Shown: piece after piece, positions 4,457-23,790 of the stretch
Layout: every line of letters starts with the position of its first letter
How positions within the stretch are numbered: position 1 is the first letter of the stretch
Assembly: GCA_963845755.1 (NCBI GenBank)
Contig: CAWJTV010000019.1
Span: 256,001 to 320,000 of the forward strand
DNA from: an uncultured Planctomycetota bacterium
GTDB lineage: Bacteria > Planctomycetota > Planctomycetia > Isosphaerales > Isosphaeraceae
Direction of reading: 5' to 3'
Length of the DNA stretch: 64,000 bases
Notes under the pieces: generated by a model
Seen by the model: only the letters and a program-made list of their open reading frames with translations
The model's database searches: none
What the model was told of the DNA's origin: nothing
Program-made: the position numbers and the translations under genes

Positions 4457-4465
4457 CAGGCCCTC

Positions 4466-4599
4466 GAGCGCTTCACGCTTGAGTTGAATACGGGCCCGTA
4501 GGGTGCTCTGTGAGCACCGATCCTCGCCACCGGCCCACCCGATGCGCCGGGGATTTTGGTGGGCCTCACGCCGCGATGCGGCGTTCGACCCACCCTACG
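4466..4599. repeat. MITE-like left end followed by a GTAG-type REP doublet at the CRISPR trailer
   Basis: GAGCGCTTCACGCTTGAGTTGAATAC matches the 44379 element end at 21/26 positions; CGTAGGGTG (4497) ... CACCCTACG (4599) inverted pair with internal hairpins. Confidence 0.55.
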
Positions 4600-4615
4600 A
4601 CCCGTTTCGTAAACC

Positions 4616-7600
4616 CTTCCAATCCCCGCGGAATCAGGGGTCACTTAGATCTGGTCGCCGACGACGAGGGCCGGCTCTGCCCGTTTCAATCCCCGCGGAA
4701 TCAGGGGTCACTTAGATCCGTTCAAATCGCAGGGGCGAGGGCCGAACACCAGAAGTTTCAATCCCCGCTGAATCAGGGGTCACTTAGATCTGGGCTACGG
4801 TGGATTTCGTTGTCCTGGCAGCAGTCTCAATCCCCGCTGAATCAGGGGTCACTTAGATCCAGAAAGAAGGGACCATGAACAACGATCCCAGTTTCAATCC
4901 CCGCTGAATCAGGGGTCACTTAGATCAGTGACCTGTCCCCGAGCTCAAAATCCGCGTCTTGAGTTTCAATCCCCGCTGAATCAGGGGTCACTTAGATCGA
5001 TATGGTCCGATGTCGAGCGCTCTGCGCAACACCGTTTCAATCCCCGCTGAATCAGGGGTCACTTAGATCTCGAAGGGGCGGTGGGAGAAGCAGAGAATTA
5101 GATGTGTTTCAATCCCCGCTGAATCAGGGGTCACTTAGATCCTCACCAGGGCTCATCCCGGTCCTTCAACGCTAGTTTCAATCCCCGCTGAATCAGGGGT
5201 CACTTAGATCCAACGATGCGAACAAAGCCAAGTTGGCTGGCTTGTTTCAATCCCCGCTGAATCAGGGGTCACTTAGATCTTCGAAGTGCACAACACAACG
5301 CTTCTCGCCTTGGTTTCAATCCCCGCTGAATCAGGGGTCACTTAGATCATGCCCACGCCGACGACCGCGGCCGGCCGCAAGTTTCAATCCCCGCTGAATC
5401 AGGGGTCACTTAGATCTGGGCCTGCCGGCGGTCGCCGCGTTGGTGCGGTTGGTTTCAATCCCCGCTGAATCAGGGGTCACTTAGATCACGTCCCAGCCAT
5501 GGCCGAGCGCAAGCACATGTTTCAATCCCCGCTGAATCAGGGGTCACTTAGATCGAATACCAGGACTCGGAATTCGAGCTGCACGCGGAGTTTCAATCCC
5601 CGCTGAATCAGGGGTCACTTAGATCCATTATTCTCCTGATTCTGAGATACGGCGCGTCCGTTTCAATCCCCGCTGAATCAGGGGTCACTTAGATCGAATC
5701 CTCGACATCCAGCCGGCCGCGGGGTTCGTTTCAATCCCCGCTGAATCAGGGGTCACTTAGATCATTGTCAACTCCAACGTTCGTTCTGCAAAGGAATCGT
5801 TTCAATCCCCGCTGAATCAGGGGTCACTTAGATCTCGCTGCCGCCGCCAATGCTGCTCAAGCGGAGAGGAAGTTTCAATCCCCGCTGAATCAGGGGTCAC
5901 TTAGATCACAGGTCGAACCGGGTGTGTTGCCCGGTCGAATCGGTTTCAATCCCCGCTGAATCAGGGGTCACTTAGATCGATGCGACGTCTCAAGAGAATG
6001 GGCTGGCGCGCCATGTTTCAATCCCCGCTGAATCAGGGATCACTTAGATCTGGATGTACCGATCTATCGCCGGTGCATGATGTTTCAATCCCCGCTGAAT
6101 CAGGGGTCACTTAGATCTGGTTCACCCGCGCCATCTCCGAAGCCCTAAAAGTTTCAATCCCCGCTGAATCAGGGGTCACTTAGATCGACGAACCGGACGA
6201 TGCCGATAAGCTCGCTGGTTTCAATCCCCGCTGAATCAGGGGTCACTTAGATCGGAAGTTCCTCAACATGAGCACCTGGACTTCTGCGTTTCAATCCCCG
6301 CTGAATCAGGGGTCACTTAGATCAAACGCAGACTTTGTACGGAAACAAAGCTCCTGGTGGTTTCAATCCCCGCTGAATCAGGGGTCACTTAGATCGGCGA
6401 CTTCGCCACGCTGACCGGCGGCGACTAGTTTCAATCCCCGCTGAATCAGGGGTCACTTAGATCTGGATCGACGCCTGCAGAATGAACCCACCTCGTTTCA
6501 ATCCCCGCTGAATCAGGGGTCACTTAGATCAACATGCAGAGGCTCTCGACAGAATTCGGGCCAAATGGTTTCAATCCCCGCTGAATCAGGGGTCACTTAG
6601 ATCGCACTGCGGGCAATATGTTCGGGCTTTTAGTTTCAATCCCCGCTGAATCAGGGGTCACTTAGATCGCTGCGCCTCACCGAGTCTCACCGGGACGATA
6701 TGTTTCAATCCCCGCTGAATCAGGGGTCACTTAGATCAGTACAGCGAGCGGCCAGTTTGCTTCACGGCTGTTTCAATCCCCGCTGAATCAGGGGTCACTT
6801 AGATCGTCCGACGTCTACTGGATCACGCTGACGGAGGACGGTTTCAATCCCCGCTGAATCAGGGGTCACTTAGATCGAGAACCGCCAAGTTCGACGCTGC
6901 GCTTCGCGTTTCAATCCCCGCTGAATCAGGGGTCACTTAGATCAACAACTGTTTTGGTTCGTCGTGAAGATGCTCGTTTCAATCCCCGCTGAATCAGGGG
7001 TCACTTAGATCGGTATACCATAAGGTTCAACCGACCCAAACTAGTTTCAATCCCCGCTGAATCAGGGGTCACTTAGATCGCAAAGGGAGATGTCGTCATC
7101 ATCCCGCCCACGGCGTTTCAATCCCCGCTGAATCAGGGGTCACTTAGATCAATATTAGAATAATTGTAGGTAGAGAAGAGTGTTTCAATCCCCGCTGAAT
7201 CAGGGGTCACTTAGATCTTCGGTCCTCGCTTTGATGAGCTGCCTTTCTGTTTCAATCCCCGCTGAATCAGGGGTCACTTAGATCGAAGGCACTCGAAGAG
7301 AGCGCTAGCTCCTTGGGAGAGGAGGTTTCAATCCCCGCTGAATCAGGGGTCACTTAGATCCCATTCCAGACAGACCGCTTCCGCAGGCAACAGTTTCAAT
7401 CCCCGCTGAATCAGGGGTCACTTAGATCCACGGCGCTCAACGAGGCCAAGCCGCGCGTCAAGCCGAGTTTCAATCCCCGCTGAATCAGGGGTCACTTAGA
7501 TCAAGAGCGCTGGCATTGCCTTCGCTCCCTTCGTTTCAATCCCCGCTGAATCAGGGGTCACTTAGATCTCCAGCTGCTGCACGTCTCCGCCGCCATGAAG

Positions 7601-8325
7601 TTTCAATCCCCGCTGAATCAGGGGTCACTTAGATCAAAAGCGCTTCTTCTACTTTCTTTTTTTTTCTGTCGTTTCAATCCCCGCTGAATCAGGGGTCACT
7701 TAGATCACAAACTGTAGCAGCATCAGCACAGTGAGTGCCTTGTTTCAATCCCCGCTGAATCAGGGGTCACTTAGATCATCTGTCGGGCGTGTCGCGATGG
7801 AAAATGAAGTTTCAATCCCCGCTGAATCAGGGGTCACTTAGATCAAGTGCCTTTCATCGAGATCATACTCACTTGTTTCAATCCCCGCTGAATCAGGGGT
7901 CACTTAGATCACCGAACTGGTCCAGGACGGTATGTCCTACGCGTTTCAATCCCCGCTGAATCAGGGGTCACTTAGATCGGAAGTGCCAGGGCTCATCGAA
8001 ACGGCTCTTGTTTCAATCCCCGCTGAATCAGGGGTCACTTAGATCTTTACCGGGAGTGGACCGACAAGGATAGGCCGCACGTTTCAATCCCCGCTGAATC
8101 AGGGGTCACTTAGATCGGGTCGAGAGTAGCCAGTCGGTCGGTGTGGTTGGCGGTTTCAATCCCCGCTGAATCAGGGGTCACTTAGATCCTAAGTTCTACA
8201 AGGTCATCAAGGACCTCAACGTTTCAATCCCCGCTGAATCAGGGGTCACTTAGATCGCAAAGAAATGTGTAGTAGTTAAAAGTCGAGTAGTTTCAATCCC
8301 CGCTGAATCAGGGGTCACTTAGATC
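4616..8325 (-). CRISPR. CRISPR array, 54 repeats / 53 spacers (manual count); 36-bp repeat GATCTAAGTGACCCCTGATTCAGCGGGGATTGAAAC in transcribed orientation
   Basis: Repeats read directly; spacers ~29-40 nt. The ATTGAAAC 3' end on the minus strand, degenerate copies at the left (4616, 4683, 4824) and cas2 to the right all indicate minus-strand transcription. Confidence 0.98.
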
Positions 8326-8700
8326 TGCACATCCGGCCACATGTAATCTGGAAATCGTCCCAGACTGTCCTGGCATATCGACTTCCGATCAATCCGGGAT
8401 GCACGTGCCGACAAGTTAACGCGCAGTATCCCACTTGGCCACCCCTCACGTGGTTTTTTTCGGCTTGCGTTTCCGCCGGCGCCAACCAAAGCGAGAGGCG
8501 CAAACGGCGTCCCCGCGTCCCCGAGAGGACCCAGAGCAAGACCGAGGCCGCAAACCGCGGCCAGCCGCCCTGCTGTAGCGACCCGCTCATTCGCGCCCGT
8601 GGGGCCAACCTACGCCCCGGCAGGAAACGAACGGGAGTCGCGGGGGAGCGATGAACCCCCGTGCGGTATACGCTGGAACTCCCTCGGAAGTGCGAACCAT
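8326..8700 (-). promoter_or_regulatory. CRISPR leader region
   Basis: Non-coding gap between the cas2 stop and the conserved end of the array. Confidence 0.7.
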
Positions 8701-8973
8701 TCACACCACGATCACGGCATCCTCGGCGACCGGATCGCGCTGCCAGGAGATGCGTCGTTTGGGGAATCGGCGGTCGATGGGGAAAAGATCGAACGCATCG
8801 GTCTTGGCCAGCAGCAGGCCCACGCGGAACCGCAGTTCGTCGAGGTCCTCCGGCTCGACCTCGATCTCGAAGACGCTCCGCTGGACGCGGCGGCCATACT
8901 CCAGGAGGATCTCGGCGACGCGGGCCCGCCGGGAATCGCGGGTGACATCGTAGGCGGCGACGTAAAGGCTCAT
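8701..8973 (-). CDS. cas2: CRISPR-associated endoribonuclease Cas2
   Basis: 'YVAAYDVTRDSRRARVAEILLEYGRRVQRSVFE' canonical Cas2 motifs. Confidence 0.95.
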   Translation of the reverse strand: MSLYVAAYDVTRDSRRARVAEILLEYGRRVQRSVFEIEVEPEDLDELRFRVGLLLAKTDAFDLFPIDRRFPKRRISWQRDPVAEDAVIVV

Positions 8974-11738
8974 GGGTGTTCGAACGGCTCCCAGGGTGAT
9001 TCGGGGTCGACCAACCGGCGTCTCAAACCGCGGGCCGTGGCGAGAAACTGCGCCAGCCAGGGCCGCGGCTCGGTCTGGCCTTTGCCGATGACGCCCGTCT
9101 TCCAGCTCCTCTGCATCAGCGCGTGAAACGTCTTCGCGGCGTGGTGCTCCAGTACCAGTGGATAAGGACCGTCAAAGCGCGGGACGAACTGGGACGGCTT
9201 CAAAATGCGCGTGGCCAGGATCACGGCCCGCTCTACCAGATGACGGAACGGCTCCTGAAGGTCGGCGGCGAGCGAGGCATAACGGCCGTCACTGGCGTGC
9301 AGGAACCCGACCGCGGGCGAAAGTCCCGCCGCCCGGCAGGCGGCGATCGCATGGCGGTAGAGCATCGTATGGCCCATGTTCAGCATCACGTTGACCGGGT
9401 CGCCGGCATCGGGCGCACGCGCAGATGAAACGAAAACCCCCTGCCGAGAAGCGAGGGGAGCCGCCGATACCACGCCGCCGCGCCCGACCCTTCATGCCCG
9501 CGCAGCGCGTCGAGCGACCCGGCCGTCATGCATTCCTCCGCCAGCTCGCGGAGCCGGACGGCGGTCGGTTCGCCGGGCTCGGTCGCGGCTTCCAGCAGGG
9601 CTGCGAAGTTCCGCAGCTTGGCCCGAACCAGCGGACGCGCCAGGAGCAGGGCGCATCGCCGGGTCGGCGGCAGCCAGGCATTGCAGCAAGATCGCCTCGG
9701 GATCGTCGGGTGGCTCGCTCACCAGATCGCCGATGGGCCAGCCCGCGTCGGAGAGCAGATGAACCGGAATCTTGCTGCGAAGGAGCTTGCCGGGAGCATC
9801 CGGGCTCCAGCCGGCCGGCCCCAGCACGATCAGCCGCTCCAGCGTGCTCAACGGGACGTCCTTGTCGTCGCTCTCGTCGGGGCCGCGAATCTTGAGTGAG
9901 TCGCCCACCACGTCCAGAAGCGTGATCCCCGGCCCAGCCACGATCACTCCCGCACCCACCTGGTGGGGCGTCTCCTGGGGCAACGCGAGCGCGAGCACCG
10001 ACGGCGTTCGATCAGCGTCCTTCCAGCCCAGCTCCTGCACCCGTCGCGGACCCGATGGCCCCGCGTACTGCCATCGCTCCTCATGACGAAATCGGTACCC
10101 CAGGAAGTCGAACGGCTCGCGGACGTCGATCACGGCGGAATCGGCGTTGAGCTGAAGCAGGAGATCGGCGGCCAGCTCCTGCGCGCGGACGTGCAGCCGC
10201 TCGGCATCGCCGCGTCGGCGCGTGAAGATCAGGAAGTCGTCCGCGTACCGGACCAGCCGTCCTCCCTCGTTCTCGATCGCTTCGTCGAACTGGTCGAGCA
10301 GCAGGTTTCCCAGCAGCGGAGAAAGGGGCGCGCCGGTGGGTATCCCCACGTCGCCCGGCAGCTCGGCCTCGACGAAGGACCACACCGCCGCCGTCGCTCG
10401 GTCGTCGCCGAGACAGGCTTCCAGCCGGTCGCGCGCGAGCTGACGCGGAACGCGATCGAAGAAACGGTCGAAGTCGGCGCGCACCGCAAAATGCCAGCCG
10501 TCGTTGACCAGGCGCTCGATGCGACGCGCCGCCGACGCGCGATTCAGTCCCCGACGCCAGGCGAATGAGGAGGTCTCGAAGAGTCGGTCCAGGGCCGGAC
10601 CCAGCCGCGCCAGGATCAATCGCTGCAAAGCCCGGTCCTCGACCGGCGGGATGCGCAGCTCGCGCGACGCGCCGTCAGCCGATCGCAAGACCACGCGATG
10701 AGCCTGGCCCGGCTGGTACGTGCCGGCCCTCAATTCTTCGGCGGCACGCCGGAATGCCTCGGGCTCGAGGTCATGCTCCGCGGCGGAATGTGAGATGGCC
10801 GCGGGCGAGAGGCAGAGATCCAGCAAGGGCCTGGCCCGCTGGCACTCGGTCGGATCGGGGCCAAGCTCCTCGATGCGGTAGCGACCAAAGCCGAAGTGCA
10901 GGTTCTTGCCGATGCGGGTGTACTGTCCCCACATCAGCGCCGCGACGGCGACCGGGTCGTGCACGGCGACGGTGATCCGCCCGAGCGCGCCCCGAGCGAC
11001 TTCCGCTCGTCGCGCCGCCCGTACTCGAGGTCGAGCCACGTCAGACGATTCGCCAGCAGCGTGATGGCCGAATCGTCAAAGGGGGCCTCGGCACCAGTAT
11101 CGGTATCGGTGTTATGATCGCGGCGACGTAGCCCGATGGCCGCGAGCCGCTTCTGGACGGTACGAAGGAACTGCCCGACGTGCAGGCCGGCGGCATCGGC
11201 GTAGCGATGTCCGGACTGCGCTTCGGAGCCGGGCCGTTCGAGCCGGAGCGGGCTGTGGAATCGAAGCGTCAGCGACTGGCCGGCCATGGCGTACAGCCGT
11301 TCGAGCTCCCGGTCGATCGTATCCAGACCGAGTGCCGCAAACGGTTCGCCCGGTGCCAGAGATCGTTTCGCGACGAGGTCTTGCACGTTGACGAGGTCGA
11401 AATTGCCTCCCAGCGCGACGGGCTTTCGCGGAGCGTCGTGCCCCACCCTGGCGAGCCCCTCGGAGATCGCGCAACCGCCGCAGCGCCATCGCGGGGTCGA
11501 ACTCGATGAGCGTGGCGCCAAAGGCAAAAAGATCGCCGGGCTCGTACCGATCGCGACACTGCTCCGGGGCATCCAGGAGCAATCCCTCCGGCATGTGCGA
11601 CGGCCGATCGGCGTCGTTCCCCCGAGCGGCATCACACAAGAGTGCGTAAAGGATGGCGTTCTGGTGACTGTGCAGAGTCCACGCCGATCGCGCGCGAAGC
11701 GTCCAGCGGACGCGGAAGAACGGTGTCTCGATTGACAT
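8970..11738 (-). CDS. cas1: Cas6-reverse transcriptase-Cas1 fusion (several frameshifts)
   Basis: N-terminal Cas6 with G-loop 'GQYTRIGKNLHFGFGRY'. RT motifs 'LRIPPVEDRALQ', 'ADFDRFFD', 'GIPTGAPLSPLLGN', 'RYADDF'. Cas1 motifs 'DPVNVMLNMGH', 'GFLH', 'LAADLQEPFR'. The Cas6 C-terminus, RT and Cas1 N-terminus share one frame (9492-11039). Confidence 0.88.
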
Positions 11739-11964
11739 CGATCCAGCTCCCGGATCATGAGGGGATTGGGAGAAGCGGGGCCGTCGGCTCCGACACGGGT
11801 CCCCAGCGTCGCCGGAATCCGTAATCGGGCAAGGAGCCGCCGTACCAGCCTTCCGGTCGAGCGATCAGGAAACGGTTTTGGGGCCGGTCCCCTGGGATCC
11901 GCGCGAACCGATCCGCGACGACGGCGCTCCGGTCGCAAGGGAACACGACGACAGTCAACCGCAC
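11735..11964 (-). CDS. Possible small degenerate Cas2-like protein (needs one frameshift)
   Basis: 'VRLTVVVF..DRSAVVADRFARIPGDRPQNRFLI' weakly resembles the Cas2 beta-alpha-'G.R.Q..F' pattern; lies directly upstream of the fusion gene. Confidence 0.25.
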
Positions 11965-12066: not shown

Positions 12067-12680
12067 TCAGGCGATCAAATCCGTCGCAAGTTCCTGAGCC
12101 TGTTCGCGATCGTTTCTTGGTTGGCCAGACAGTTCGGAGAGCCCGTGGGCCACTTTCTTCGTGAACGACACCGTGATCCGATACCACGAGTAGCCTGCAA
12201 GCGCCGTAAGTAATACCCCCAAGAGGCCGACGAGCCAGGCCAACACGGCCTGGGAGACCCCGAACTCCGGCGCCACTGCCTGCCGATAAACAGCTCGCCG
12301 CACAGGGTGATGAGTGTGAAATTGAACACGGACGATCGGCAGATCCTTACCCTCGTCCTCATGTAATCGAACTGGCGGGACAGCCATTCGTCCCGCTTAC
12401 GGCCGAGGAGACGCGTCACGGTCGGGCCGTCGTCATGCATATATCTGCGTCGGATGCGTCAACTAATGGGATGGAGCAGGTCGTCAGCCAGGTTGTCGAC
12501 GAATACGCCAGCCGGGTAAAGAATCGGCAGCAGGGCTGCCGCGATGGCCACCTCCCACCCTTTGAGTTCCTTCAGCGCGGCGGGATCGAACCCGACGAAG
12601 CTCGCGACGAGCAGGCACAGCCAGATGCCCACCTGAACGCCGGAGATCAGCAAATCCACGAAGAGCAATGTCGTGTTCAT
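12067..12680 (-). CDS. CRISPR-associated ~200-aa membrane protein with about 4 TM helices (two frameshifts)
   Basis: Joined ORFs 12459-12680, 12075-12440 and 12067-12387: 'MNTTLLFVDLLISGVQVGIWLCLLV', 'LLPILYPAGVFVD', 'DYMRTRVRICRSSVFNFTLITL', 'LAWLVGLLGVLLTALAGYSWYR'. Start overlaps the NTPase stop. Confidence 0.7.
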
Positions 12681-13301
12681 GATTCTTGAAGGGCTGCAAC
12701 GCCTTGCGGGTTGACGGCGGGCTCCGGGGCGCTCGCCAGTCGGACCAGAAGCCGGGCTAACTCCCGGACCATCGGACGTTCGTGGACGGGCTCACCGCGT
12801 TCCAAACGATGGATCGAGCCGGTCAGGAGACCCGTGTCCTTCCAACGAACGTCATCTTCAATGCCCCCGTAGTCGCTCCAGATTTCGGCCACAACCGTCA
12901 GACCCACTCGAGCCGCGAACTCACGCCACTCGTCAAACGCACCGCGGTCGCCAGCCAGGAGTATGGCGTGGGTCGCCCCGGCGCTGATCTTCTCATTCTT
13001 CTCGTCGGGCACGCCCCCGATATCAACCAGCGTCAGTGGCTCCGCACAGTTTCTTACCGAATTGGCGACGAGTTGTACGAACTCGGGAGTGAATCGCGCT
13101 ATAGGCTTTCTTGTATGCCTGGGCCCTCGCGGAATCACGTCGAACGGTTTCCTGATACCAGGCTCCCTCACCGTCGGGACAGGCGGTGATGACATAGCAA
13201 TAGGGGGCGCCGGATATGTGCGACACCGCGTCCTTCAAACCCTGCCGCAGGCAAGACTTGCCCGACTGCGGTGGGCCGCACAAGACCACTTTGATGCTCA
13301 T
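12677..13301 (-). CDS. Csx3-associated P-loop NTPase (frameshifted)
   Basis: Walker A 'VVLCGPPQSGKS', 'ACPDGEG.W', Walker B-like 'LTLVDIGG', 'ATHAILL'; follows csx3. Confidence 0.8.
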
Positions 13302-13355
13302 CGAGCACTCTCCGAACTGTCACAATCCCAAGGAAAACCCCTCGGAGATGATCGA

Positions 13356-13671
13356 TTACTCCAGTTGCTGCCCCAGTTCGAAACTCGGGGTCATGGGTGA
13401 TACACACGACGTAGCCGGGGGAGAGTTTTGGATCGCGCCAGGCCAGCGCCTCGAACTTATGAGCGACCTCATGTGCAAGCACCACGGCGACGAGCACCGA
13501 CACCGGCCCGTTGAACTTGACGAGCTTCCCACCGGTCAGGTTCAGCTCTCTGATGGCCGCCACTGCATCGCGAATGATCTCCGGGTTCTCCGCCGGGGCA
13601 CCGAATGAGGTGCGCAGTTCTACAACTCCATGGGATTCTTCTATGATCTCGACCGTATAATGCTTCGCCAC
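13356..13671 (-). CDS. csx3: Csx3/Crn3-family ring nuclease, copy 2 (one indel near the C-terminus)
   Basis: 'GGKLVKFNGPVSVLVAVVLAHEVAHKF.ALAW.DPKL..GYVVCITHDP'; GTG start behind a GGAGGG RBS. Confidence 0.8.
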
Positions 13672-14111
13672 GTGCCCCTCCCATTGGTTCATCGCTCGTT
13701 GCGACAGCGCCGAAGCGATCGCACTCTACTGCGTCAGATCTCCACAAGCCCGCGGGCCTCTCACCAGCGGAAAGCCCGGGGGGCGGCGGACACTCAAGGT
13801 CGGCGGCCCGCGGCCCTGCCCATCGAGTTCGGAACCGAAGAGTATTCGCCGGGCTCCAACGAAGATTCAGGCTCCGCGCCGCCTGGGCAACTGGGTCAGC
13901 GGCCCAGCCCGCCGACCGCACACCTGATTGATCAGCATAAGCCACACCAGGGCGGATCCGCTACCGTGTGGCGTTCGAGAAAGACCTGGAGCACATTCAC
14001 GCTTGGATTGAGCACGCGGACTTGAGAAGCCGGTGCCGACAGATCGCGATCCCCCGACACTGGCACAGGACTGATCTCTTGGAGAGGCATGATTGACGAG
14101 ATCGGCGTACA

Positions 14112-14459
14112 TCAGGATGTGCCCATTGACTCACGCTCGCAACTCGCTTGTCCTCCGGTCGTTGGGCCAGGCCCCGCGGGGGCGGGAGTGGCCGGCGGCG
14201 TTACATCGATGACCTGGCCCTCATGCCACTCAGGGCGATGGGACGCCACGACGACGGCCCCCAGGCGGGGATCGTAGACGGCGATCGCCCCGGCCGGCGA
14301 GCCATGCAGGCGGTGAAAAGCGATGCCATAACGCCAGATCGGCGCGCGGCCCTCGATGACGACCAAGGCGCCGCGCGGGATCGTGGGCAACGACGGCAGT
14401 GGCTCCTCGGGCCGGATCGGCGCGGTGACGCCGATGGAGTAGAAGACGACATCAGTCAT
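14112..14459 (-). CDS. csx3: Csx3/Crn3-family ring nuclease, copy 1
   Basis: 'LVVIEGRAPIWRYG..FH.LH....IAVYDPRLGAVVVASH' classic Csx3 signature. Confidence 0.9.
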   Translation of the reverse strand: MTDVVFYSIGVTAPIRPEEPLPSLPTIPRGALVVIEGRAPIWRYGIAFHRLHGSPAGAIAVYDPRLGAVVVASHRPEWHEGQVIDVTPPATPAPAGPGPTTGGQASCERESMGTS

Positions 14460-14619
14460 CAAAGATGTCCCCGTTGTGATCCCGGACGATGGTCCTTGCC
14501 GCCATTTGGAGACCTCTGGTTTCGACTTTGGGTGATGGGCTAAGGCTATCTCCGACATTGGTGGGACGAGGATTCCAACTTGCTGCACGCTGGCCGCGCT
14601 CGCAACCGAGGACGCGGAG

Positions 14620-14837
14620 GTTTCAACGCCCTCGGCGCGGGCGAGACCTGTTAGGGTAGCAGCCAGTGCCATGCATGTCCCTTGCGAGACGTTTCAATCC
14701 CCGCTGAATCAGGGGTCACTTCGATCCGCAGCCCGAGACGAAAACAGCTCTCTCCTGTGTTTCTAATCCCCGCCGAATCAGGGGTCACTTTGATGTCGCA
14801 GCCAGTGCTATGCATGTCCCTTGCGAGTCGTTTCAAT
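14620..14837 (-). CRISPR. Degenerate hybrid mini-array: one heterologous repeat, two cognate repeats, one partial repeat, three spacers
   Basis: Cognate repeats at 14691-14726 and 14759-14795; GTTTCAAT remnant at 14830; a different 37-nt GTTTCAAC-starting hairpin unit at 14620-14656. Confidence 0.8.
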
Positions 14838-14839
14838 GT

Positions 14840-15094
14840 TCTTGGACCGGACGAGACACATAAATCTCGTGTCCTCCTCTTGAATTTACTCGGAAACCGA
14901 GGATAATTCAAGTATCGCGGGCGTAGAATTGGAGGGAGGGCAGAGTCTCTCCATATGTAGTGCTCGGTTGACCATTACGGAACGTGGTTTCATGACCTGT
15001 TATCATCGATGATTTCAAAAGCAGCCAACGTCATTCATGTCACCTTGGAGAGACTTCTCCAGAGCGATCCACTAATCCTATCTGGAGGAATTCC
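14840..15094. promoter_or_regulatory. AT-richer divergent promoter region between the two Cas arms
   Basis: Non-coding, lower GC; genes diverge on either side; GGAGG RBS before the ATG at 15095. Confidence 0.5.
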
Positions 15095-15744: not shown

Positions 15745-15975
15745 TCCTCATTCGGGCCTGGAGGACAGATGCGTTGATTCCTCTCATGGGAGCGGGTAAG
15801 TTCTCTGAAGCGGGGACTGGCCGAGATGGCGTCGAGTCGAGACGCCGACGCCCCTGAGCGAGAACCCGCGCCGGTCTGCCGCCCGATGCCCTCGGGTCGC
15901 CGGGGGTTTGGGAATCGGCAGCGGTTCGAGGTTTGAACCAACCCCAGGTTGTGCCCTCATACAAAGGTTCCAACG

Positions 15976-17416
15976 ATGGGCCGCACCATTCGCGCCTCTT
16001 GCCCGGAATCCGAGGCCCCTGCTCTGGTAAAGCCTCCCGAGGGAGCCTGGAAGATTGGGGTTCGTCTGGTCACACCGTTGTTCGGAGGGGGACCTCGCCG
16101 GGCAGTACGACGTTGGCACACCGTTTGCCCCCAAGGCGATTCGCGGCCAGCTTCGGTTCTGGTGGCGCTCGTCGCGGGGTGGGCGCTTCCTCCCGACCCC
16201 GATCGATCTGCGGTTGAACTCATGAGCCTGCGGGAGACGGAGATCTTCGGCAGCGCCGAGTTGCCCAGCCCGTTCGATCTGATCGTCAGCGATGTGCGGC
16301 TCAACGGAGAGCGCCGCCTCGATGCGAAAGAGGAATACGAATTTGGGAGGTTGGGACCAGAGGCTTACGCGCTTTTCTCTGCGAAACAGAACAAGGTCGG
16401 GGCGATTGTGAAGGAAGGAGCGACGTTCACCCTCGAAGTGCGTTTGTCGTCGGCCCGGGCGTTCTCGCGAAGGCAGTCCATCGAACAACAGCGGCGTGAG
16501 GAATCGACGAAAACTGCTTCCGATGGCAAGCGCCGACCACTCGATTGCCTGGAACAAGAAGCTGTCCGGGATCATCTCCGCGCCGCGCCTGTGGGCATGG
16601 CTCAATCTCGGCGGCCTCGGCGCACGTACACGGCGGGGTGTCGGTTCCGTCACCACGGACAAGCAGGAATTCTCCTTCCTCGCGGACGGCAAGCTACGAC
16701 ATGCCCTCCCGGCGACGATCGTCTTGGCCGATCCTAAGCAGGGGACGACTGCGGCCCTGGCGTCGGGCAGCCGCAGTGGGAGTCTATCAGAGATTCCGCC
16801 AGGGATTCCGAAGGCCTCCCGGAAAGAAGGGCCCCGCACCGGGTCGCTCGAAGTGGCCTGAGCCCGACTCGCTGCGCAAATCGCAGGATGTGCCTTGGAG
16901 CCGCGCCAAGGCGACCCGCGCATCATTCCACGCCGGTCGTTCCCACTGAGACGATCCCTGGCTTCCCTCGCGCGGCCTTGGGCCTGCCAATGATCTTCCA
17001 TTTCGCCCACGGCGACGGGCCTGGCAAGGATCAGCCGCCCAAATCCTTCAAGGATCCAGCGGACGGATCTGAATCCCAAGATTGTTGGGTCGGATGCAAA
17101 ATCCCGCAGGGGAGCGGATGGCGAGCCCCGTCCTCACTCGTGCGGTGTGGATCGAAGGCCAATGCGGTGCCCGCGATCATCGTGTTGCGACATCCCCCGG
17201 CGTTGGACCGCTGATTTTTCCATTGGAACCACACCTGAACATCAAGGGCGTCAATGCCAAGGGGAACGCGAGGACAAATCGCGAGACGTCGCTCACGATC
17301 GGATCGTGAACCCGGCCTTCGCGACGCTCGAACCGATGCAGAAGCAAAGCAACGCACGGGACGCGCTCCTGGTCTTTGTCCGTGCGAACGGTTTCCGGGA
17401 CTTCCAAGGAAAATGA
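15976..17416 (+). CDS. cmr1: Type III-B RAMP Cmr1 (multiple frameshifts)
   Basis: 'LVTPLFGGG', 'ETEIFGS', 'WAWLNLGGLGARTRRGVGS', 'FPRAALGLP', 'RMASPV'. Confidence 0.85.
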
Positions 17417-19672
17417 GCCTGGCCATGGAATACCTGATGGCGGTCTCGATCGGCCCGGTGCAGGGATTCATCGCGGCGGCGAGACGGACCCGAGACTTCT
17501 GGATGGCTTCCACCATCCTGTCCGAGTGCGACAAAGCGGCCGCGCGCTGGATCGTCGAGCAGCCGCCCGGATCGGCGGATTCCCCCGATTAGAGCGGTTG
17601 ATCTTTCCGTCGCCACGCAACAGGTGGACGAGCCCAGCGAAAAGGATGCTCTCGCCGGGGCAGTGCCTCGACCTCAAGGCTTGGGATTTCACCGAGGATA
17701 ACACGTGCTCGCCATCGGAGCGACTTCAATGTTACGAACGTCTTGCTGTTCCGATTCCAGACCGAAGATCCCGGGGGAGGTTGTCGCTCTAATCCGCGAT
17801 GATGTGGTCGGACGATGGAGTTGGTTTGTCAAGCGGACTCTGGACCGCAAGGTCAGGGTCCTCGATGGGCCCCGGGCCGGCGAGGAATTGCCCGTCGAGA
17901 CCGACCTCTGGGATGCCGCCTTGTCGGGCCAACGCGAAGCCGCGAGAGACGTCTTTCAGAATTTCGCCGCCGGGGTCCCTATTGATGCCGCTCTCGGCAA
18001 GTACGGGGACGCGAGGAATCGCGTAATGAGGCTCCTAAATGGACGTAAGTCGTGTTGCGACTTCAAACCCTGGAAAGGGGTTGCCGGCCGGCCGAAATCC
18101 TCCTTGGACGGGGTCGCGCGAATCCGTCCTGAAGGAGCCTGTGGATCGCGTATTACCCTTGGACATTCGGCCGGGCGAACAGCTCGATCTGGTGGGGCTG
18201 GTCAAGCGACTCGAGTTCGGCAACGATGCGATCCGGTTCCCTTCCGTGTCGCGCCTGGCTGCCGACCCATGGATTCGGGCCGCATGCACGGACCCTCAGG
18301 CCAGAAAGAGCCTTGAGAAGATCGAGGCGATTTGCGAGGAACTTCGTGGGCTCAACCTGATCCGAAAGCGAATGTACTTTCCTAACGCGGCCAAGGAGGA
18401 CGATCCGCCAAAGTTTCCTTGGTGGGACGATTTCCCTTTCGAAGGATCTCCGTCGTCGTTCATTTCCCGCCACCGGGAACTGATGCCGGCAACATCCGGC
18501 ATTCGAGCCGGACTTCAAACCACGACCGGGTGAGGACCCGGTAGCGACCCGAAAGCGGGAGGAGCCGGTCGGATCACTGGAGAACCCGGTCCTCTCAGAT
18601 CGAGCAGAAGCTTGACTTGGTGGAAGATTTGGTAAGATGCATGAAGCCCTCTCTCTGCGAACCATCTCCTTATTTCGCCATCGTCGTGGCCGACGGCGAC
18701 GGCATGGGGCGGACGATCTCGTCCCTTGCATCGCTGGACGACCCCGATATTCACCGAGCCTTCTCGCTGGCCCAGTCTGTCTTCGACGACGAGGTGCGCT
18801 CCCACGATCGATGGGAGATCCCCTGCGGAAATCCGCGATCCGGGGTCCCGAGGGTGATTCGCGAGTGGTCGGATTTCATGGCGCCACCGTCTTCGCCTCC
18901 CGGTGACGACGTCCTGTGTTTTCTCCCAATCGACCAGTGCCTCGTCGGGGCGAGGATGATGCACGACCTGTTCGATCAGATCCTGCGCCGAGAGTTCGAA
19001 AAGTCGCCTTCAGGTGTGACCGCTCTCCGGCATCTTGAGGACCAGGGACCGATGCCGACTCTCTCCGTCGGCATCGCCATCGGACACTTCATGGAACCGC
19101 TCGAAGACCTCCTCGCTTTCGCGAAAGCCGCGGAGTATCGTGCGAAGAACCCGACAAAAGAGGACGTGCCTTTGCCGCCAAGTCTGCGCAACGGTCTGGC
19201 TCTCGCAATCCATCCTCGAGGCGGGGCGGCCTTTACCGTGCGCGATAACTGGTCCGGAGTCGATTCCCCCGGTTTCCAGCCCCTGGATCGGCGACTGCTC
19301 GAGTGGGCAGAATTACACCAGGAGAAAGTTCTCCCCACCAAAGCGGCCTATGATTTGCATTTGGCCTCGCGTTTTTACACGAACTGGAAGTCCAACACTG
19401 ATGCCGACAAGGAAGCCCTCCGGCGAGCCATCCGGTCGAATTGCCTCCGGTACTCGCGCGGGAGGCGGTTCCGCCGGTAGGGAGGATGACAGGAGGAAGG
19501 TGCGCGACCTAATCCAGAACGTCCGGAACACCTCAGATCTGGAGAGCCTGGCCCATGAGCTGATTGCCGGCCAGTGGATCGGTGATGCGTCCGGCAGGCA
19601 TCAGTCCCGCGGCCTGACGGCAATCAGCCAGGAGAACCGTCTCAACAGCACGCCCCCGGGGGAGTCGTCTGA
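17413..19672 (+). CDS. cas10: Cas10/Cmr2 without an N-terminal HD domain (multiple frameshifts, end approximate)
   Basis: 'SIGPVQGFIAAARRTRDFWMASTILSE', 'PKSSLDG', 'GEQLDLVGLVKR', 'YFAIVVADGDGMG', 'GDDVL', 'TLSVGIAIGH'. Confidence 0.9.
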
Positions 19673-20960
19673 TGTCGGCATCGAGCATCTACCTGTCACT
19701 GACTCCCCGCGATCCGCTGATCCTCGGGATGGGCGACCGTTCTCCGCCGGGTACCGGATGAAGTCGCTGGACTGGTTCTATCCGTCCGTGTTGGCGGGCT
19801 CGTTGCGGACCTTACTCGGCCAGAAACAGGGGGGGTTTCCGCCACAAGGTTCCGACGAGTATAGCCGGCTCGTCCACTCGCTCAAACAGGTCGAGTGTGC
19901 CGGGCCTTTTCCTTGCGTCACGAGGGATGGAAAGCCTCCAGAACTCTATTCTCCACGTCCGGGGGATTTTGTGGTACGGAAGAAATGTGGGAGGCTGCAG
20001 GGCCTCCCGGTCCGACCGTGGGATCTGGACCAGGAGTGTGGTGGATGCGATCTACCGAAAGGCCTCTCGCCTGTGATTCTGAATCCCGAGGTCGTGAAGG
20101 GCGAGTTCAAACCTTCGCCGGTGCCGGCATTCTGGTCGCGGTCGCAAATCACTTCGTGGCTGACAGACGCCACCGGGACTTCCTTTCGGATGAGAACTCA
20201 ATGGGGGGATGGAGATCTGGACGCTCCGTGCAAAGAGGAACGGACTCATGTCAAAATGAGTTATGATCTGGCGCCGGGCAAGATGGCAACCTCTTTCAGA
20301 CGACGGGCCTCGTCCTCGAGGAACTTCCTCGTCCTGATCAAGAGGAAGAATGCCTAAAGACTGCTCAATCCATCATCTTGGTGTCTCGGCTCGTCTGCGG
20401 CCCTGAAAGCCCGTTCCAGACGATCGGTGCCTCCCTCAATGACTCCTCTCCCTTCGGTGGAGAACGGCGTCTCATGCACTGGCAGGCGGGAGGCGCCCCC
20501 GCCGTCGTGGGATTGCCCTAAGGCGGTGAGGGATGCCCTCAATACTCTCGAGCAGGAAGATCAACCGTGTTCGTTCGTATGGTCCTTGCCACGCCGGCAT
20601 TGTTCCGGCGCGGGTGGTGTCCGGGCTCGATGGATAGAAAACACTCACCGGCGAGGTGCCGGGAACGGGTGTGAGCGTCCGACTCATCGGGGCTGCAACG
20701 GAACGGTGGAGGCCGGTCTCGGGTTGGTCATACGAAACGGCTCTTGCGCCCAAGCCCGTCCGTCGCGTCGTTCCCGCCGGAGGTGTCTTTTTCTTTGAGG
20801 TCACGCCGGGCAGCCCTCGTCCGCCGTCTCGCTGGCGGATCACTGGCTGAGATCGGTCTGCGACGATGAACAGGATCAACGCGATGGCTTCGGCCTCGCT
20901 CTTTGGGGAGTCTGGAAACCGTTTAAAGACACGCACACTTTTATAGGATCAGCCCGATGA
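19672..20960 (+). CDS. cmr3: Type III-B RAMP Cmr3 (frameshifted)
   Basis: 'LTPRDPLI..DGRPF', 'YPSVLAGSLRT', 'PVSGWSY....PKPVRRVVPAGGVFFF', 'DGFGLALWG'. Confidence 0.88.
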
Positions 20961-21934
20961 GCACGGCAATGTCACCGACGGTGGGACAAGTGGCGCGACA
21001 CCGTGCAAGGTCCCTACTGGATTCACGCGCTGACGCCGCTCCATGTCGGCTCCGGTCGCGGGATTGGGTTCATCGACCTGCCGATCATGCGCAGAAAGCC
21101 ACCGAGTATCCCTTCGTCCCGGGATCGGCCGTGAAGGGCGTCCTGGCGGATCATCATGGCGCCGATGATGAGGCCCGCGACCAATCGAACAAGCAGAATG
21201 GCAGGTTCAAGCCGGACCTGAAACTGGCGTTCGGGTCGGGGGGAGATGAGTTCGCCAACTCCGGAGCAATCGTTTTCACCGACGCGCGACTCGTGTGTCT
21301 CCCGGTTCGCAGCCTGTATGGAACATTCGCCTGGTGCACGTCGAACCTCATCCTGAAGCGGCTCCAACGCGACCTCGTCCGTTGTCACCATTCCTGGAGA
21401 CCGCTGCCACCTCAGGCGACAAAGATCGACCGAATTGTCGTCACGAACCTATCGACCTCGGCGTTGAAGGATCAGGATCAGCGGGCCTTCTTCGAGGACC
21501 TCGATTTCACCATGGAGACCAGTGAAGCCGCGGAGGAGTGGGCGAAGTCGCTGGCCGAGTCGGTGTTTGCTGATCCCGACTGGCAGAAGCTTTTCCTCGA
21601 TCGATTCGCCGTCGTTCACGACGACGTCTTTACGTTCCTCTGCGAGACGGCCACGCAAGTGGACGCGCGCGTGAAGATCGACGACGACACCAAGACCGTC
21701 GCGAAAGGCCAACTCTGGTACGAGGAGTCGCTGCCGGCGGAATCGATCCTGTCTGGTATCGCCTGGTGCGGGCCGGTATTCGGTAACAATGGGAACCGAA
21801 ACGACCCAGAGAAACGGCGCCAACTCATGAAGGACTTCTGCGGCGGTTCTCACTATCTGCAACTTGGCGGCAAGGCGACGGTTGGTCGAGGCCAGGTGCG
21901 GTTGACTTTCTCGGACGGAGCCTCGGCGGGCTGA
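20957..21934 (+). CDS. cmr4: Type III-B RAMP Cmr4 (compensating frameshifts near the N-terminus)
   Basis: 'PFVPGSAVKGVL', 'FTDARLVCLPVRSL', 'LWYEESLPAESIL', 'LQLGGKATVGRG'; alternative frame gives 'LTPLHVGSGRGIGFIDLPI'. Confidence 0.93.
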   Translation: MSTAMSPTVGQVARHRARSLLDSRADAAPCRLRSRDWVHRPADHAQKATEYPFVPGSAVKGVLADHHGADDEARDQSNKQNGRFKPDLKLAFGSGGDEFANSGAIVFTDARLVCLPVRSLYGTFAWCTSNLILKRLQRDLVRCHHSWRPLPPQATKIDRIVVTNLSTSALKDQDQRAFFEDLDFTMETSEAAEEWAKSLAESVFADPDWQKLFLDRFAVVHDDVFTFLCETATQVDARVKIDDDTKTVAKGQLWYEESLPAESILSGIAWCGPVFGNNGNRNDPEKRRQLMKDFCGGSHYLQLGGKATVGRGQVRLTFSDGASAG

Positions 21935-21994
21935 GGACTCTTCCTTCCTCCAAGGCCCGCGAGGGCCAACCTCTTCTTGAATGACAAGAAATCT

Positions 21995-22418
21995 ATGAGT
22001 ACCACATCCGAAAGCAAGCCCATCCGAACCCGCCAGCAGACGATGGCCCAGGCTGCGTTCGAACACGTCGATCGTCGGCACGGCGCACGGATCGACATCC
22101 CCAGGGAATCCGCTCCTTCGCGCCTCTCGTTCCCATCATTGATCCAGGCTGCCGGGCTGTGTCAAGCCGTTGCATTCGCCCAGGCAAAGGGAGGAAGGAA
22201 CAAGGAGGTCTTGGACGACGTAGTTGCGACGATCAAGGAATCGAAGAGTTATGAGGGAGATTTGAGGAAGACATGCACAGAAAGGCGTCGGCGAGTACCT
22301 TCGTTTGACGCGTCTGGCTCTCCAGGCCGCGACGTGGGTCAAACGATACGTTCGAGGCGCTTGACAGAGAGACGAATGGGCCACCCAGAACCAACTTGGC
22401 GAGCACCCTGAACACCAG

Positions 22419-22431
<13 letters not shown>
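21995..22431 (+). CDS. cmr5: Type III-B small subunit Cmr5 (frameshifted, end approximate)
   Basis: 'RTRQQTMAQAAF', 'FPSLIQAAGLCQAVAF', alternative frame 'ATWVKRY'; lies between cmr4 and cmr6. Confidence 0.82.
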
Positions 22432-23690
<1,259 letters not shown>

Positions 23691-23790
23691 CTCGCTATCC
23701 CGGTCTGTCTACGAGATGCAAACGGGTGAGAGCCCGAGTCCATCCCTCTGTCATGACGAGGACCGTCGGCGTACGGAGCAGCCCGAATTC

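What the first reader, a model, noticed from the sequence alone, without database searches (positions are those of the whole stretch)
12067..14459. Candidate undescribed type III effector/regulator cassette: csx3 - csx3 - P-loop NTPase - 4TM membrane protein, with no recognisable cOA effector
Seen: four co-oriented genes upstream of the adaptation module. They are two divergent Csx3 paralogues, a Walker A/B NTPase and a ~200-aa membrane protein whose start overlaps the NTPase stop. I recognise no CARF, SAVED, NucC or CorA gene between 4.6 and 25.8 kb, and Cas10 has no HD domain. Known: Csx3/Crn3 is a cA4 ring nuclease, and HD-less Cas10 generally relies on second-messenger effectors beyond Cmr4 RNA cleavage. 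Inference: two off-switches with no visible on-switch suggest either that the membrane protein (Y..G in TM2 and an Arg-rich loop, loosely Csx27-like) is the effector, or that one Csx3 is a cOA sensor coupled to it through the NTPase.
Basis: partly seen in the sequence, partly recalled or inferred. Interest (0 to 1): 0.82.

Follow-up and report, generated by a model that had tools for sequence, protein, structure and literature searches.

The report
Split Csx3-NTPase pair plus membrane protein
Beside a type III-B CRISPR system that lacks any recognisable alarm-signal effector sit an ordinary signal-degrading enzyme (Csx3), a two-gene form of the known but unexplained "Csx3-AAA" accessory protein, and an uncharacterised four-helix membrane protein that may or may not be the missing effector.

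Summary
Four co-oriented minus-strand genes lie at 12067-14429: csx3-1, csx3-2, a P-loop NTPase and a 204-aa 4TM protein whose ATG overlaps the NTPase stop.

- csx3-1 is a standard Crn3/Csx3 ring nuclease with all catalytic residues.
- csx3-2 plus the NTPase are not a new coupling device. They are the split form of the catalogued accessory family Csx3-AAA/AAA-Csx3 (PADLOC PDLC01045; Shah et al. clusters 35 and 67). The two partners are adjacent or fused in 77 of 80 foreign loci, and most of these have no CRISPR nearby.
- The NTPase folds like SIMIBI or kinase-type P-loop proteins, not like AAA+.
- The membrane protein belongs to an unnamed family (856 representative clusters) with no Pfam, PADLOC or structural match. 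That family is not linked to cas genes or to Csx3-AAA elsewhere: 0 of 80 NTPase loci, and 0 of 13 family contexts scanned.
- The csx3-2/NTPase/4TM block does recur in one second organism (about 70% identity).
- No CARF, SAVED, Card1 or Csx1/Csm6 gene was found in the 14.3-Mb genome.
- A relative's syntenic cmr operon carries card1-csx3 where this locus has none.

The frameshifts look like assembly noise; an in-frame TGA in the membrane gene may be real. Verdict: a new variant of a known kind, of moderate interest.

The parts
14112..14429 (-). csx3-1: canonical Crn3/Csx3 ring nuclease, 105 aa
   Evidence: PF09620 7.8e-22, TIGR02579 above cut-off. Matches AfCsx3 structures at 2.5e-13, with G45, R46, I49, H57, H60, D69, R71 and H80 equivalents kept. 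76-77% DNA identity to csx3 of relatives G015 and G002.
13356..13692 (-). csx3-2: divergent Csx3 domain protein, the Csx3 half of a split Csx3-AAA. Likely start is the GTG at 13671; frameshift near 13381; true C-terminus ...DPEFELGQQLE
   Evidence: PADLOC PDLC01045 positions 13-95, E 1e-11. 104-aa orthologues P0285-P0288 are 64-74% identical. The same family is adjacent to or fused with the NTPase in 77 of 80 loci.
12677..13301 (-). P-loop NTPase (the 'AAA' half of Csx3-AAA), about 207 aa, one frameshift near 13095
   Evidence: 419 homologues at E<=1e-3. Homologues P0002 and P0005 match PDLC01045 positions 108-285 at 5e-57 and 1e-61. The window copy keeps 62 of 63 family-invariant residues; the exception is C107 to S. 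The fold is nearest Get3, GPN-loop, SRP and MinD proteins and small kinases.
12067..12680 (-). 4TM membrane protein, 204 aa if read through. In-frame TGA at 12459-12461 where orthologues have Arg; one-base deletion in a C run near 12270
   Evidence: Orthologues P0122 (71-81% identical to the three window pieces) and P0123 (56-76%). The family has 856 representative clusters. All 15 positions conserved at 90% or more are kept. AF2 model pLDDT 91.5.
14691..14719 (+). Solitary CRISPR repeat, with a degenerate second copy beside it, directly upstream of csx3-1
   Evidence: Exact repeat match outside the main array. Two 'VTPDSAGI' translations in the 14651-14911 ORF.
8315..11938 (-). Adaptation module downstream of the cassette: (Cas6-like)-RT-Cas1 broken over several frames, plus a likely cas2
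   Evidence: RVT_1 6.4e-20 and Cas1 matches in ORFs 9492-11039 and 8970-9473. The Cas6-like N-terminal part and cas2 are my reading only.
4616..8318 (-). CRISPR array, 54 repeats of 36 nt, degenerate at the 4.6-kb end
15949..24871 (+). cmr1-cas10(cmr2)-cmr3-cmr4-cmr5-cmr6-cas6 interference operon, many frame breaks. The cyclase motif region at 18890-18915 reads ...ATVFAS/PPGDDV across a frame break
   Evidence: Pfam and NCBIfam hits. Three-frame reading. Collinear with the cmr operon of G015.

Best explanation
The region holds two separate type III accessory modules next to a type III-B (Cmr) system.

Module 1 is csx3-1, an ordinary Crn3/Csx3 ring nuclease that degrades cA4 made by Cas10.

Module 2 is a three-gene unit:
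- csx3-2 and a small P-loop NTPase, together the split form of the known but functionally unexplained Csx3-AAA accessory protein;
- a lineage-specific 4TM protein, co-transcribed and translationally coupled to the NTPase.

Proposed working, inferred and not shown:
1. The csx3-2 dimer binds cA4 or its linear product.
2. Ligand-driven head-to-tail stacking, as in Crn3, brings the partner NTPases together. These have a SIMIBI-like, dimerisation-type fold.
3. This switches their nucleotide state.
4. In this lineage the switch is read out at, or anchored to, the membrane through the cytoplasmic Arg-ladder stalk of the 4TM protein.

The cassette sits in a locus whose relative carries card1-csx3, so the three-gene unit is the best local candidate for the missing output. 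The frameshifts are assembly errors.
For: Identity (shown):
- Pfam, NCBIfam and PADLOC assignments.
- Catalytic residues of csx3-1.
- csx3-2-family domain beside or fused to the NTPase on the same strand in 77 of 80 loci: 38 downstream, 19 upstream, 20 fused in some form. The 3 misses have the NTPase at a contig end.
- NTPase fold.
- Literature: Csx3-AAA and AAA-Csx3 are type III accessory clusters 35 and 67, with the ATPase proposed to be regulated by the Csx3 domain (PMC6546367, passages). [quoted passage not shown]

Linkage of the 4TM gene:
- ATGA start/stop overlap.
- Orthologues of csx3-2 (74%), the NTPase (72%) and the 4TM protein all come from a 3625-bp NCBI/ENA contig.
- All conserved residues are kept in both proteins.

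Missing effector:
- Only one Cas10 in the genome.
- No hit for Card1 (protein query and 2 Pfam models), SAVED, APE2256, Cas02710, Csm6 HEPN or Csx1 HEPN.
- The G015 cmr operon is collinear and ends in card1-csx3.
- Relatives that have csx3-1 lack both the NTPase and the 4TM family.

Assembly noise: a second assembly of the same organism (P0121, P0284) has different indels at the same spots.
Against: - The 4TM family is not a general partner of the pair. It occurs in 0 of 80 foreign NTPase loci within 10 kb and in 0 of 5 whole genomes carrying the pair.
- Only 6 of 80 loci have any ORF with 2 or more hydrophobic segments within 1.5 kb on the same strand (crude hydropathy).
- No NTPase was found in the 36 loci of other genomes that hold the 4TM family (33 metagenome contigs and 3 genome stretches).
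- In the 13 family contexts scanned with Pfam, neighbours were type I R-M plus TIR or NucS-like genes (2), a cyclase-STAND protein (1), and otherwise metabolic or housekeeping genes such as pfk/ftsY. None had cas genes. Many of these contigs are short.
- Deletion of the Synechocystis Csx3-AAA gene did not affect plasmid interference (PMC9676260, passage citing Shah et al.).
- The in-frame TGA in the 4TM gene seems to be shared by the second assembly, because P0121 starts just after it. The gene may therefore be broken.
- The genome is 87.9% complete. Three of the seven Pfam models rang in no control genome, so absence of an effector is not proven.
- Same-contig linkage in the second organism rests on equal contig length only.
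Confidence: 0.5

Rival explanations
1. The 4TM protein is a bystander: a small membrane protein of a widespread, mostly stand-alone family that happened to land downstream of the Csx3-NTPase pair. The locus simply has no cOA effector. Either card1 was lost and the system relies on Cmr4 RNA cleavage, or the effector lies in the unassembled 12% of the genome. Both Csx3 proteins only tidy up cA4.
For: The family occurs in unrelated contexts and never with cas genes or the NTPase elsewhere. It is rare and scattered: 4 of 400 other genomes of the window's own phylum and 3 of 401 of another phylum, each count including one marginal match. Thirty-two ring-nuclease loci without a known effector are reported (10.1101/2024.09.24.614671, passage). 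A possible real TGA lies in the gene.
Against: The ATGA overlap and the apparent conservation of the same three genes at about 70% identity in a second organism argue for selection on the linkage. All family-conserved residues are retained.
Confidence: 0.3
2. The whole CRISPR locus, cassette included, is decaying. The frameshifts and the stop codon are real, and none of these genes functions.
For: Frame breaks occur in RT-Cas1, Cas10, Cmr3, Cmr6, csx3-2, the NTPase and the 4TM gene, while the flanking mdh and a 1272-aa ORF are intact.
Against: A second assembly of the same organism carries different indels at the same sites (P0121, P0284). One break was read at base level and is a missing C in a C run. 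Genome completeness is low although the assembly has few contigs, as in several relatives, which is typical of noisy long-read assemblies. Conserved residues are all but fully intact: 62 of 63 in the NTPase and 15 of 15 in the 4TM protein. The array has 54 near-perfect repeats.
Confidence: 0.1
3. One reading: the 4TM protein is itself a Csx27-, Cam1- or Csx23-like effector that binds cOA directly.
For: A conserved cytoplasmic Arg ladder (R108/R110/R112/R115) and acidic residues D62/D66 could bind phosphates. No other effector was found.
Against: There is no CARF or other soluble sensor domain; the protein is 204 aa of helices. It has no Pfam or PADLOC hit and no structural match above background. 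The family is not linked to cas10.
Confidence: 0.07

Closest known systems
Csx3-AAA / AAA-Csx3 type III accessory proteins (Shah et al. 2018 clusters 35 and 67; PADLOC PDLC01045, PDLC01059, PDLC01515; Synechocystis Slr7080; 'Csx3-prime' of Athukoralage et al. 2020)
   Same: csx3-2 and the NTPase match the two halves of the fusion. The pair lies next to a type III-B locus, as in cyanobacteria. The function is unknown in both cases.
   Different: Here the two domains are separate genes, as in 57 of 80 loci. They are followed by a translationally coupled 4TM gene seen in none of the 80 foreign NTPase loci examined. The NTPase fold is SIMIBI- or kinase-like rather than AAA+.
Crn3/Csx3 ring nuclease (A. 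fulgidus AF1864; PDB 3WZI, 6YUD, 6VJG)
   Same: csx3-1 shares the family models and all residues shown to matter for cA4 cleavage (PMC7371418, passages).
   Different: The csx3-2 family keeps G45, H57, D69 and H80, but has K for R71, HxxxH for HxxH and lacks R46. Its nuclease activity is untested.
card1/can2-csx3 arrangement in the related genome G015
   Same: Collinear cmr1-cmr6 operon and a 76%-identical csx3.
   Different: G015 has Card1 (CARF plus nuclease) directly before csx3 and lacks the NTPase and the 4TM protein. The window lacks Card1 and has csx3-1 inverted beside the three-gene unit.
CRISPR membrane effectors Cam1, Csx23, Csx27, Csx28
   Same: A small membrane protein encoded in a CRISPR locus; the proposed role would be analogous.
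   Different: No sequence-model or fold match, no soluble cOA-binding domain, and the family is not CRISPR-linked. The features of those effector families are recalled, apart from the mentions of Cam1 and Csx23 in 10.1101/2024.09.24.614671.
CRISPR-less Csx3-NTPase islands of Patescibacteria (with TrmB, HD_4, MoxR-VWA)
   Same: The same two-gene core.
   Different: Those islands lack cas genes and carry other partners. The window's copy is in a true type III-B locus with a membrane partner.

Membership tests
Crn3/Csx3 (csx3-1) | Match to PF09620 / TIGR02579 above the curated cut-offs | tested here: met
   77.4 bits (cut-off 21) and 68.8 bits (cut-off 55.4)
Crn3/Csx3 (csx3-1) | Catalytic and cA4-contact residues H57, H60, D69, R71, H80, G45, R46, I49 (AfCsx3 numbering, PMC7371418) | tested here: met
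   The alignment to 6vjg/3wzi shows all of them conserved; only S44 is E.
Crn3/Csx3 (csx3-2) | Match to PF09620 above the cut-off | tested here: not met
   17.1 bits against a cut-off of 21. No NCBIfam hit. Not found by PF09620 in the genome search.
Crn3/Csx3 (csx3-2) | Full set of catalytic residues | tested here: inconclusive
   G45, H57, D69 and H80 equivalents are invariant. R71 is K throughout, the second His is shifted (HxxxH), and R46 is absent.
Csx3-AAA (PADLOC PDLC01045; Shah cluster 35) | Csx3 domain and the specific P-loop domain both present | tested here: met
   csx3-2 matches model positions 13-95 at 1e-11. NTPase homologues P0002 (72% identical to the window) and P0005 match positions 108-285 at 5e-57 and 1e-61.
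Csx3-AAA (PADLOC PDLC01045; Shah cluster 35) | Both domains in one polypeptide | tested here: not met
   A stop at 13358-13356 and an ATG at 13301 separate them. Orthologues of csx3-2 are stand-alone 104-aa proteins.
AAA+ ATPases (for the NTPase) | AAA+ sequence models or fold | tested here: not met
   No AAA Pfam family reached its cut-off at E<=1. The 13 Foldseek matches at E<=1e-3 are Get3, GPN-loop GTPases, SRP54, dephospho-CoA kinase, CTP synthase N-domain and ApbC.
CRISPR membrane effectors (Cam1, Csx23, Csx27, Csx28) for the 4TM protein | Sequence or fold likeness, or a cOA-binding soluble domain | tested here: inconclusive
   No Pfam or PADLOC hit. Foldseek PDB gave nothing at E<=1e-3. 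The best VIA-align Z was 7.1, on generic helical hairpins. The model is all-helical with no extra domain.
Type III accessory gene (for the 4TM family) | Recurrent neighbourhood with cas10/RAMP genes | tested here: not met
   cas genes appeared in 0 of 13 contexts scanned with Pfam. The family is absent from all 80 foreign Csx3-NTPase loci. Many contigs were short, so the sample is weak.

The most novel reading that the evidence does not exclude
In this lineage the Csx3-like sensor, its dimerising NTPase and the 4TM protein form a new three-part cA4-responsive membrane effector that replaced Card1. More broadly, the Csx3-NTPase pair would be a portable signal-to-switch module that plugs into different outputs: a membrane protein here, and MoxR-VWA, HD_4 hydrolase or other partners elsewhere.
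Probability: 0.18. Interest if true: 0.8.

Novelty: new variant of a known kind. Interest (0 to 1): 0.5.

Why it matters
Csx3-AAA has been listed as a type III accessory protein since 2018. In the passages I read it is still described as being of unknown function, up to a 2024 preprint. About 32 ring-nuclease loci without any known effector are on record (10.1101/2024.09.24.614671).

This locus offers a clean test case. It has a single HD-less Cas10 in the genome, no recognisable cA4 effector, and a close relative with card1-csx3 at the syntenic place. Here, instead, there is a split Csx3-NTPase pair welded to a membrane protein.

If the trio proves to be the output, it would give Csx3-AAA a function and add a new membrane effector type. 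If not, the locus is one more effector-less type III system, and the 4TM family remains an unrelated orphan.

Tried and rejected
- Co-folding of the NTPase (A1) with the 4TM protein (A6): no verdict, score 0.00, controls not run. This is no evidence either way.
- Public reads: one soil-metagenome run held only two 151-nt contigs, identical to the window at 13975-14125 and 14395-14545. It gave nothing on the indels or the TGA, and no RNA holder was listed.
- Metagenome scans for the 4TM family:
  - Alignments A2 and A3 were too divergent for the tool.
  - Single protein P0122 found no relative.
  - The narrower alignment A4, of a distant subfamily, gave 33 mostly short contigs.
- Viral contigs with A4: none.
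- ESM Atlas for P0122: only unnamed 'hypothetical protein' clusters.
- Remnant of card1 upstream of csx3-1: none. Homology to G015 starts at the csx3 start codon.
- Promoter and terminator scan of 11.8-15.1 kb: counts not above shuffles.
- ORF 24900-25787 after cas6: no Pfam hit. The translation looks non-coding and contains a 42-nt tandem repeat.
- PDB sequence search for the NTPase and for csx3-2: nothing significant.
- SLATT/DUF4231 likeness of the C-terminal half was considered from memory. No Pfam hit supports it.
Full report
**What is there.** The window is G000:C19:256001-320000, from a 14.27-Mb genome in 49 contigs that is 87.9% complete.
- A 54-repeat CRISPR array lies at 4616-8318.
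- A frame-broken RT-Cas1 adaptation module lies at 8.3-11.9 kb on the minus strand.
- A cmr1-cas10-cmr3-cmr4-cmr5-cmr6-cas6 operon lies at about 15.9-24.9 kb on the plus strand.
- Between them, on the minus strand, lie the four genes of the finding:
  - csx3-1, 14429..14112.
  - csx3-2, 13692 or 13671..13356.
  - A P-loop NTPase, 13301..12677.
  - A membrane protein, 12680..12067, whose ATG overlaps the NTPase TGA.
- About 420 nt separate csx3-1 from csx3-2. The last three genes are tightly packed.
- A solitary CRISPR repeat sits just upstream of csx3-1, at 14691-14719.

**Frame breaks.**
- csx3-2, the NTPase and the membrane gene each carry one frameshift.
- The membrane gene also has an in-frame TGA at 12459-12461, where both orthologues have Arg.
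- Two proteins from another assembly of the same organism (P0121 and P0284, contig 12136 bp) show different indels at the same sites.
- The break in the membrane gene, the only one I read at base level, is a one-base loss in a C run.
- The NTPase keeps 62 of 63 family-invariant residues. The membrane protein keeps 15 of 15 positions conserved at 90% or more.
- I therefore read the indels as assembly noise.
- The TGA may be real, because P0121 begins just after it.
- Public reads gave no help: two 151-nt contigs only.

**csx3-1.**
- It is a standard Crn3/Csx3: PF09620 7.8e-22, TIGR02579 above cut-off.
- It aligns with the A. fulgidus Csx3 structures at 2.5e-13.
- The equivalents of G45, R46, I49, H57, H60, D69, R71 and H80 are conserved. 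These are the residues that Athukoralage et al. (PMC7371418, passages read) tie to cA4 binding and cleavage.

**csx3-2 and the NTPase are a split Csx3-AAA.**
- The NTPase has 419 relatives at E<=1e-3 among 807 candidates. Most are 190-196 aa and about 60% identical, none has a Pfam family, and JGI labels many of them 'Csx3'.
- PADLOC places full-length homologues (P0002, 72% identical to the window; P0005) on positions 108-285 of model PDLC01045 'Csx3-AAA' (5e-57, 1e-61). They also match PDLC01515 and PDLC01059 'AAA-Csx3'. csx3-2 falls on positions 13-95 of PDLC01045 (1e-11).
- I examined the best 80 of 193 confirmed genomic loci. A csx3-2-family domain lies on the same strand beside the NTPase, or fused to it, in 77 of them:
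  - 38 downstream.
  - 19 upstream, as in the window.
  - 10 with an N-terminal fusion plus an extra upstream copy.
  - 6 N-terminal fusions.
  - 3 C-terminal fusions.
  - 1 scored on both sides.
  - The 3 misses have the NTPase at a contig end.
- Shah et al. (PMC6546367, passages) list these as type III accessory clusters 35 and 67. They suggested that the ATPase is regulated by the Csx3 domain.
- Later papers still call the domain's function unknown (10.1101/2024.09.24.614671; PMC8284326; PMC9676260; passages).
- Only 19 of the 80 loci have type III genes within 5 kb, nearly all cyanobacterial. The cluster representatives were checked by Pfam.
- The many Patescibacteria-type loci instead carry a TrmB regulator (25 loci), an HD_4 hydrolase (23), or MoxR (10) and VWA (9).
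- Earlier notes of this scan describe the same CRISPR-less islands.
- In the window's own phylum the NTPase was found only in G000, apart from one marginal hit, among 401 genomes.

**Nature of the two halves.**
- The csx3-2 family keeps the equivalents of G45, H57, D69 and H80. It has an invariant Lys for R71, HxxxH instead of HxxH, and lacks R46. It is likely still a nucleotide binder; whether it cleaves is open.
- An AlphaFold model of the NTPase (pLDDT 83.3) is nearest to Get3, GPN-loop GTPases, SRP54/FtsY, MinD/ParF, ApbC and the CTP-synthase N-domain, and to small kinases. E-values are 8e-5 to about 1e-3 and TM-scores 0.4-0.6. It is not near AAA+ proteins.
- Walker B reads hhhhDxGG.
- Four cysteines are family-invariant. 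The window has Ser at one of them.

**The membrane protein.**
- Read through, it is a 204-aa protein. Orthologue P0122 is 71-81% identical over the three window pieces, and P0123 is 56-76% identical.
- An exhaustive HMMER search found 856 representative clusters at E<=1e-3, of which 280 are at 1e-10 or better. Typical length is 185-215 aa.
- Invariant residues are G14, Y55, G58, R112, R115 and N120. The motifs are YP(L)GI.D..AD at the end of TM2 and (D/E)Y.R.R(I/M/L)R(I/V).R(S/A)...N before TM3.
- The model (pLDDT 91.5, pTM 0.84) has four long helices. TM2 and TM3 extend into a stalk that carries the Asp pair and the Arg ladder. By the positive-inside rule I place this stalk in the cytoplasm (inference).
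- There is no Pfam or PADLOC hit, no Foldseek match at E<=1e-3, and a best VIA-align Z of 7.1 on generic hairpins. The Atlas neighbours are unnamed.

**Is the membrane protein tied to the pair or to CRISPR?**

Against:
- A family HMM hit none of the 80 foreign NTPase loci.
- It hit none of 5 whole genomes that carry the pair.
- Only 6 of 80 loci have any ORF with 2 or more hydrophobic segments within 1.5 kb on the same strand.
- The family is rare. It occurs in 3 of 401 genomes of one phylum and in 5 of 401 of the window's phylum including G000, each count including one marginal match.
- In the 36 loci of other genomes that hold the 4TM family (33 metagenome contigs of a distant subfamily and 3 genome stretches), the NTPase HMM found nothing.
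- Pfam scans covered 10 of these loci (132 ORFs) and 3 loci from the window's phylum (44 ORFs). They showed:
  - two defence-type contexts: NucS-like plus HsdR in L102, and two pentapeptide-TIR proteins plus HsdM/HsdS in L110;
  - one cyclase-STAND neighbour;
  - otherwise metabolic or housekeeping genes, for example between pfk and ftsY in G321;
  - no cas gene.

For:
- The ATGA overlap.
- The closest homologues of csx3-2 (P0285, 74%), the NTPase (P0002, 72%) and the membrane protein (P0123) each come from an NCBI/ENA contig of exactly 3625 bp. I take this to be one contig, that is, a second instance of the trio. This is an inference from contig length.

**Is an effector missing?**
- The genome has one Cas10 and one Pfam-level Csx3.
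- The following searches found nothing:
  - the Card1 protein of G015;
  - PF23400 and PF09002;
  - PF18145 SAVED;
  - PF09651;
  - PF09659;
  - PF09670;
  - PF09455.
- Three of these models (PF18145, PF09651, PF09659) rang in no control genome, and the assembly is incomplete and noisy. Absence is therefore 'not found', not proven.
- In relative G015 the cmr operon is collinear with the window's and is followed by card1 (CARF_Card1 plus Card1_endonuc) and a 76%-identical csx3.
- G015, G002, G001 and G018 lack both the NTPase and the 4TM family.
- In the window, csx3-1 is inverted and moved next to the three-gene unit, and no card1 remnant remains.
- The Cas10 cyclase motif lies exactly on a frame break and reads ...FAS/PPGDDV. 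I cannot say whether it is GGDD-like.

**Reading.**
- Settled: this is one ordinary ring nuclease, plus a split Csx3-AAA, plus a lineage-specific membrane protein.
- The mechanism is inferred. I propose that ligand-driven stacking of the Csx3-like dimer controls a dimerisation-type NTPase, which here acts at the membrane protein.
- I give about 0.5 to the overall account with the membrane protein as a functional partner.
- I give about 0.18 to the bolder claim that the trio is a new cA4-responsive effector that replaced Card1.
- The main rival (0.3) is that the membrane gene is a bystander in an effector-less locus.

**Comparison and novelty.**
- The core is already catalogued as Csx3-AAA.
- New here are the split pair inside a true type III-B locus with no known effector, the welded 4TM partner from an unnamed family, and the contrast with a card1-bearing relative.
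- The only literature searches I ran for functional work used the terms 'Csx3'+'AAA' and 'Csx3-AAA'. One search found the term in 3 held papers, 2 of them listed. Neither title concerns its function, and only the 2018 survey was read.
- Supplements were not consulted.

Noticed in passing
window 14691-14719 (and about 14770-14830): A solitary exact CRISPR repeat with a degenerate second copy, forming a one-spacer mini-array. It lies 6 kb from the main array, directly upstream of csx3-1 at the place where relative G015 has card1.
   Followed up: partly
window 4616-8318: The repeats degenerate at the 4.6-kb end. The reverse complement of the repeat ends in ATTGAAAC, the usual 8-nt crRNA tag (recalled). 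The array is therefore probably transcribed on the minus strand, from a leader next to cas2/cas1.
   Followed up: no
window 8970-11938: An RT-Cas1 fusion (RVT_1 plus Cas1), apparently with a Cas6-like N-terminal part, is spread over at least three frames. The Cas6 part is my reading only.
   Followed up: partly
NTPase family (A1); window about 12990: Four cysteines (C17, C41, C86, C107 of P0002) are invariant in 26 homologues, which hints at a metal or Fe-S site. The window copy has Ser at C107, its only departure from 63 invariant positions.
   Followed up: partly
L141 (G015:C209) 2155-10261: The relative's locus reads cmr1-cas10-cmr3-cmr4-cmr5-cmr6-card1-csx3 on one strand. No CRISPR repeat of the window's type occurs in the 14.8 kb fetched.
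   Followed up: partly
L012-L058 and other Patescibacteria-type loci: The split Csx3-NTPase pair recurs with a divergent TrmB regulator (25 of 80 loci), an unnamed 858-aa protein (11), and MoxR (10) and VWA (9), without cas genes within 5 kb. An HD_4 hydrolase is near the pair in 23 of 80 loci, across cyanobacteria and Patescibacteria.
   Followed up: partly
L110 2848-9094; L102 3653-8461: Members of the 4TM family sit directly before two pentapeptide-TIR genes and a type I R-M system (L110), and before a NucS-like gene and HsdR (L102). These are the two longest metagenome contigs recovered.
   Followed up: partly
L138 (G321:C7) 7956-9472: In a complete genome of the window's class, the 4TM family gene lies 27 nt upstream of ftsY, a SIMIBI GTPase. 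This is a curious parallel to its position after a SIMIBI-like NTPase in the window, and may be chance.
   Followed up: no
L054 9815-11143; L066 9836-11149: Two Paceibacterota loci have the NTPase fused to a 189-aa C-terminal extension with no Pfam match.
   Followed up: no
window 15095-15744: Small plus-strand ORFs between the mini-array and cmr1 look like a two-gene antitoxin/toxin-type pair. The first (15095-15265) had no Pfam hit and the rest was not scanned. The region also has a frame break.
   Followed up: no
window 25272-25387: A 42-nt tandem repeat (2.8 copies, 90% matches) lies in an apparently non-coding stretch between cas6 and mdh.
   Followed up: no
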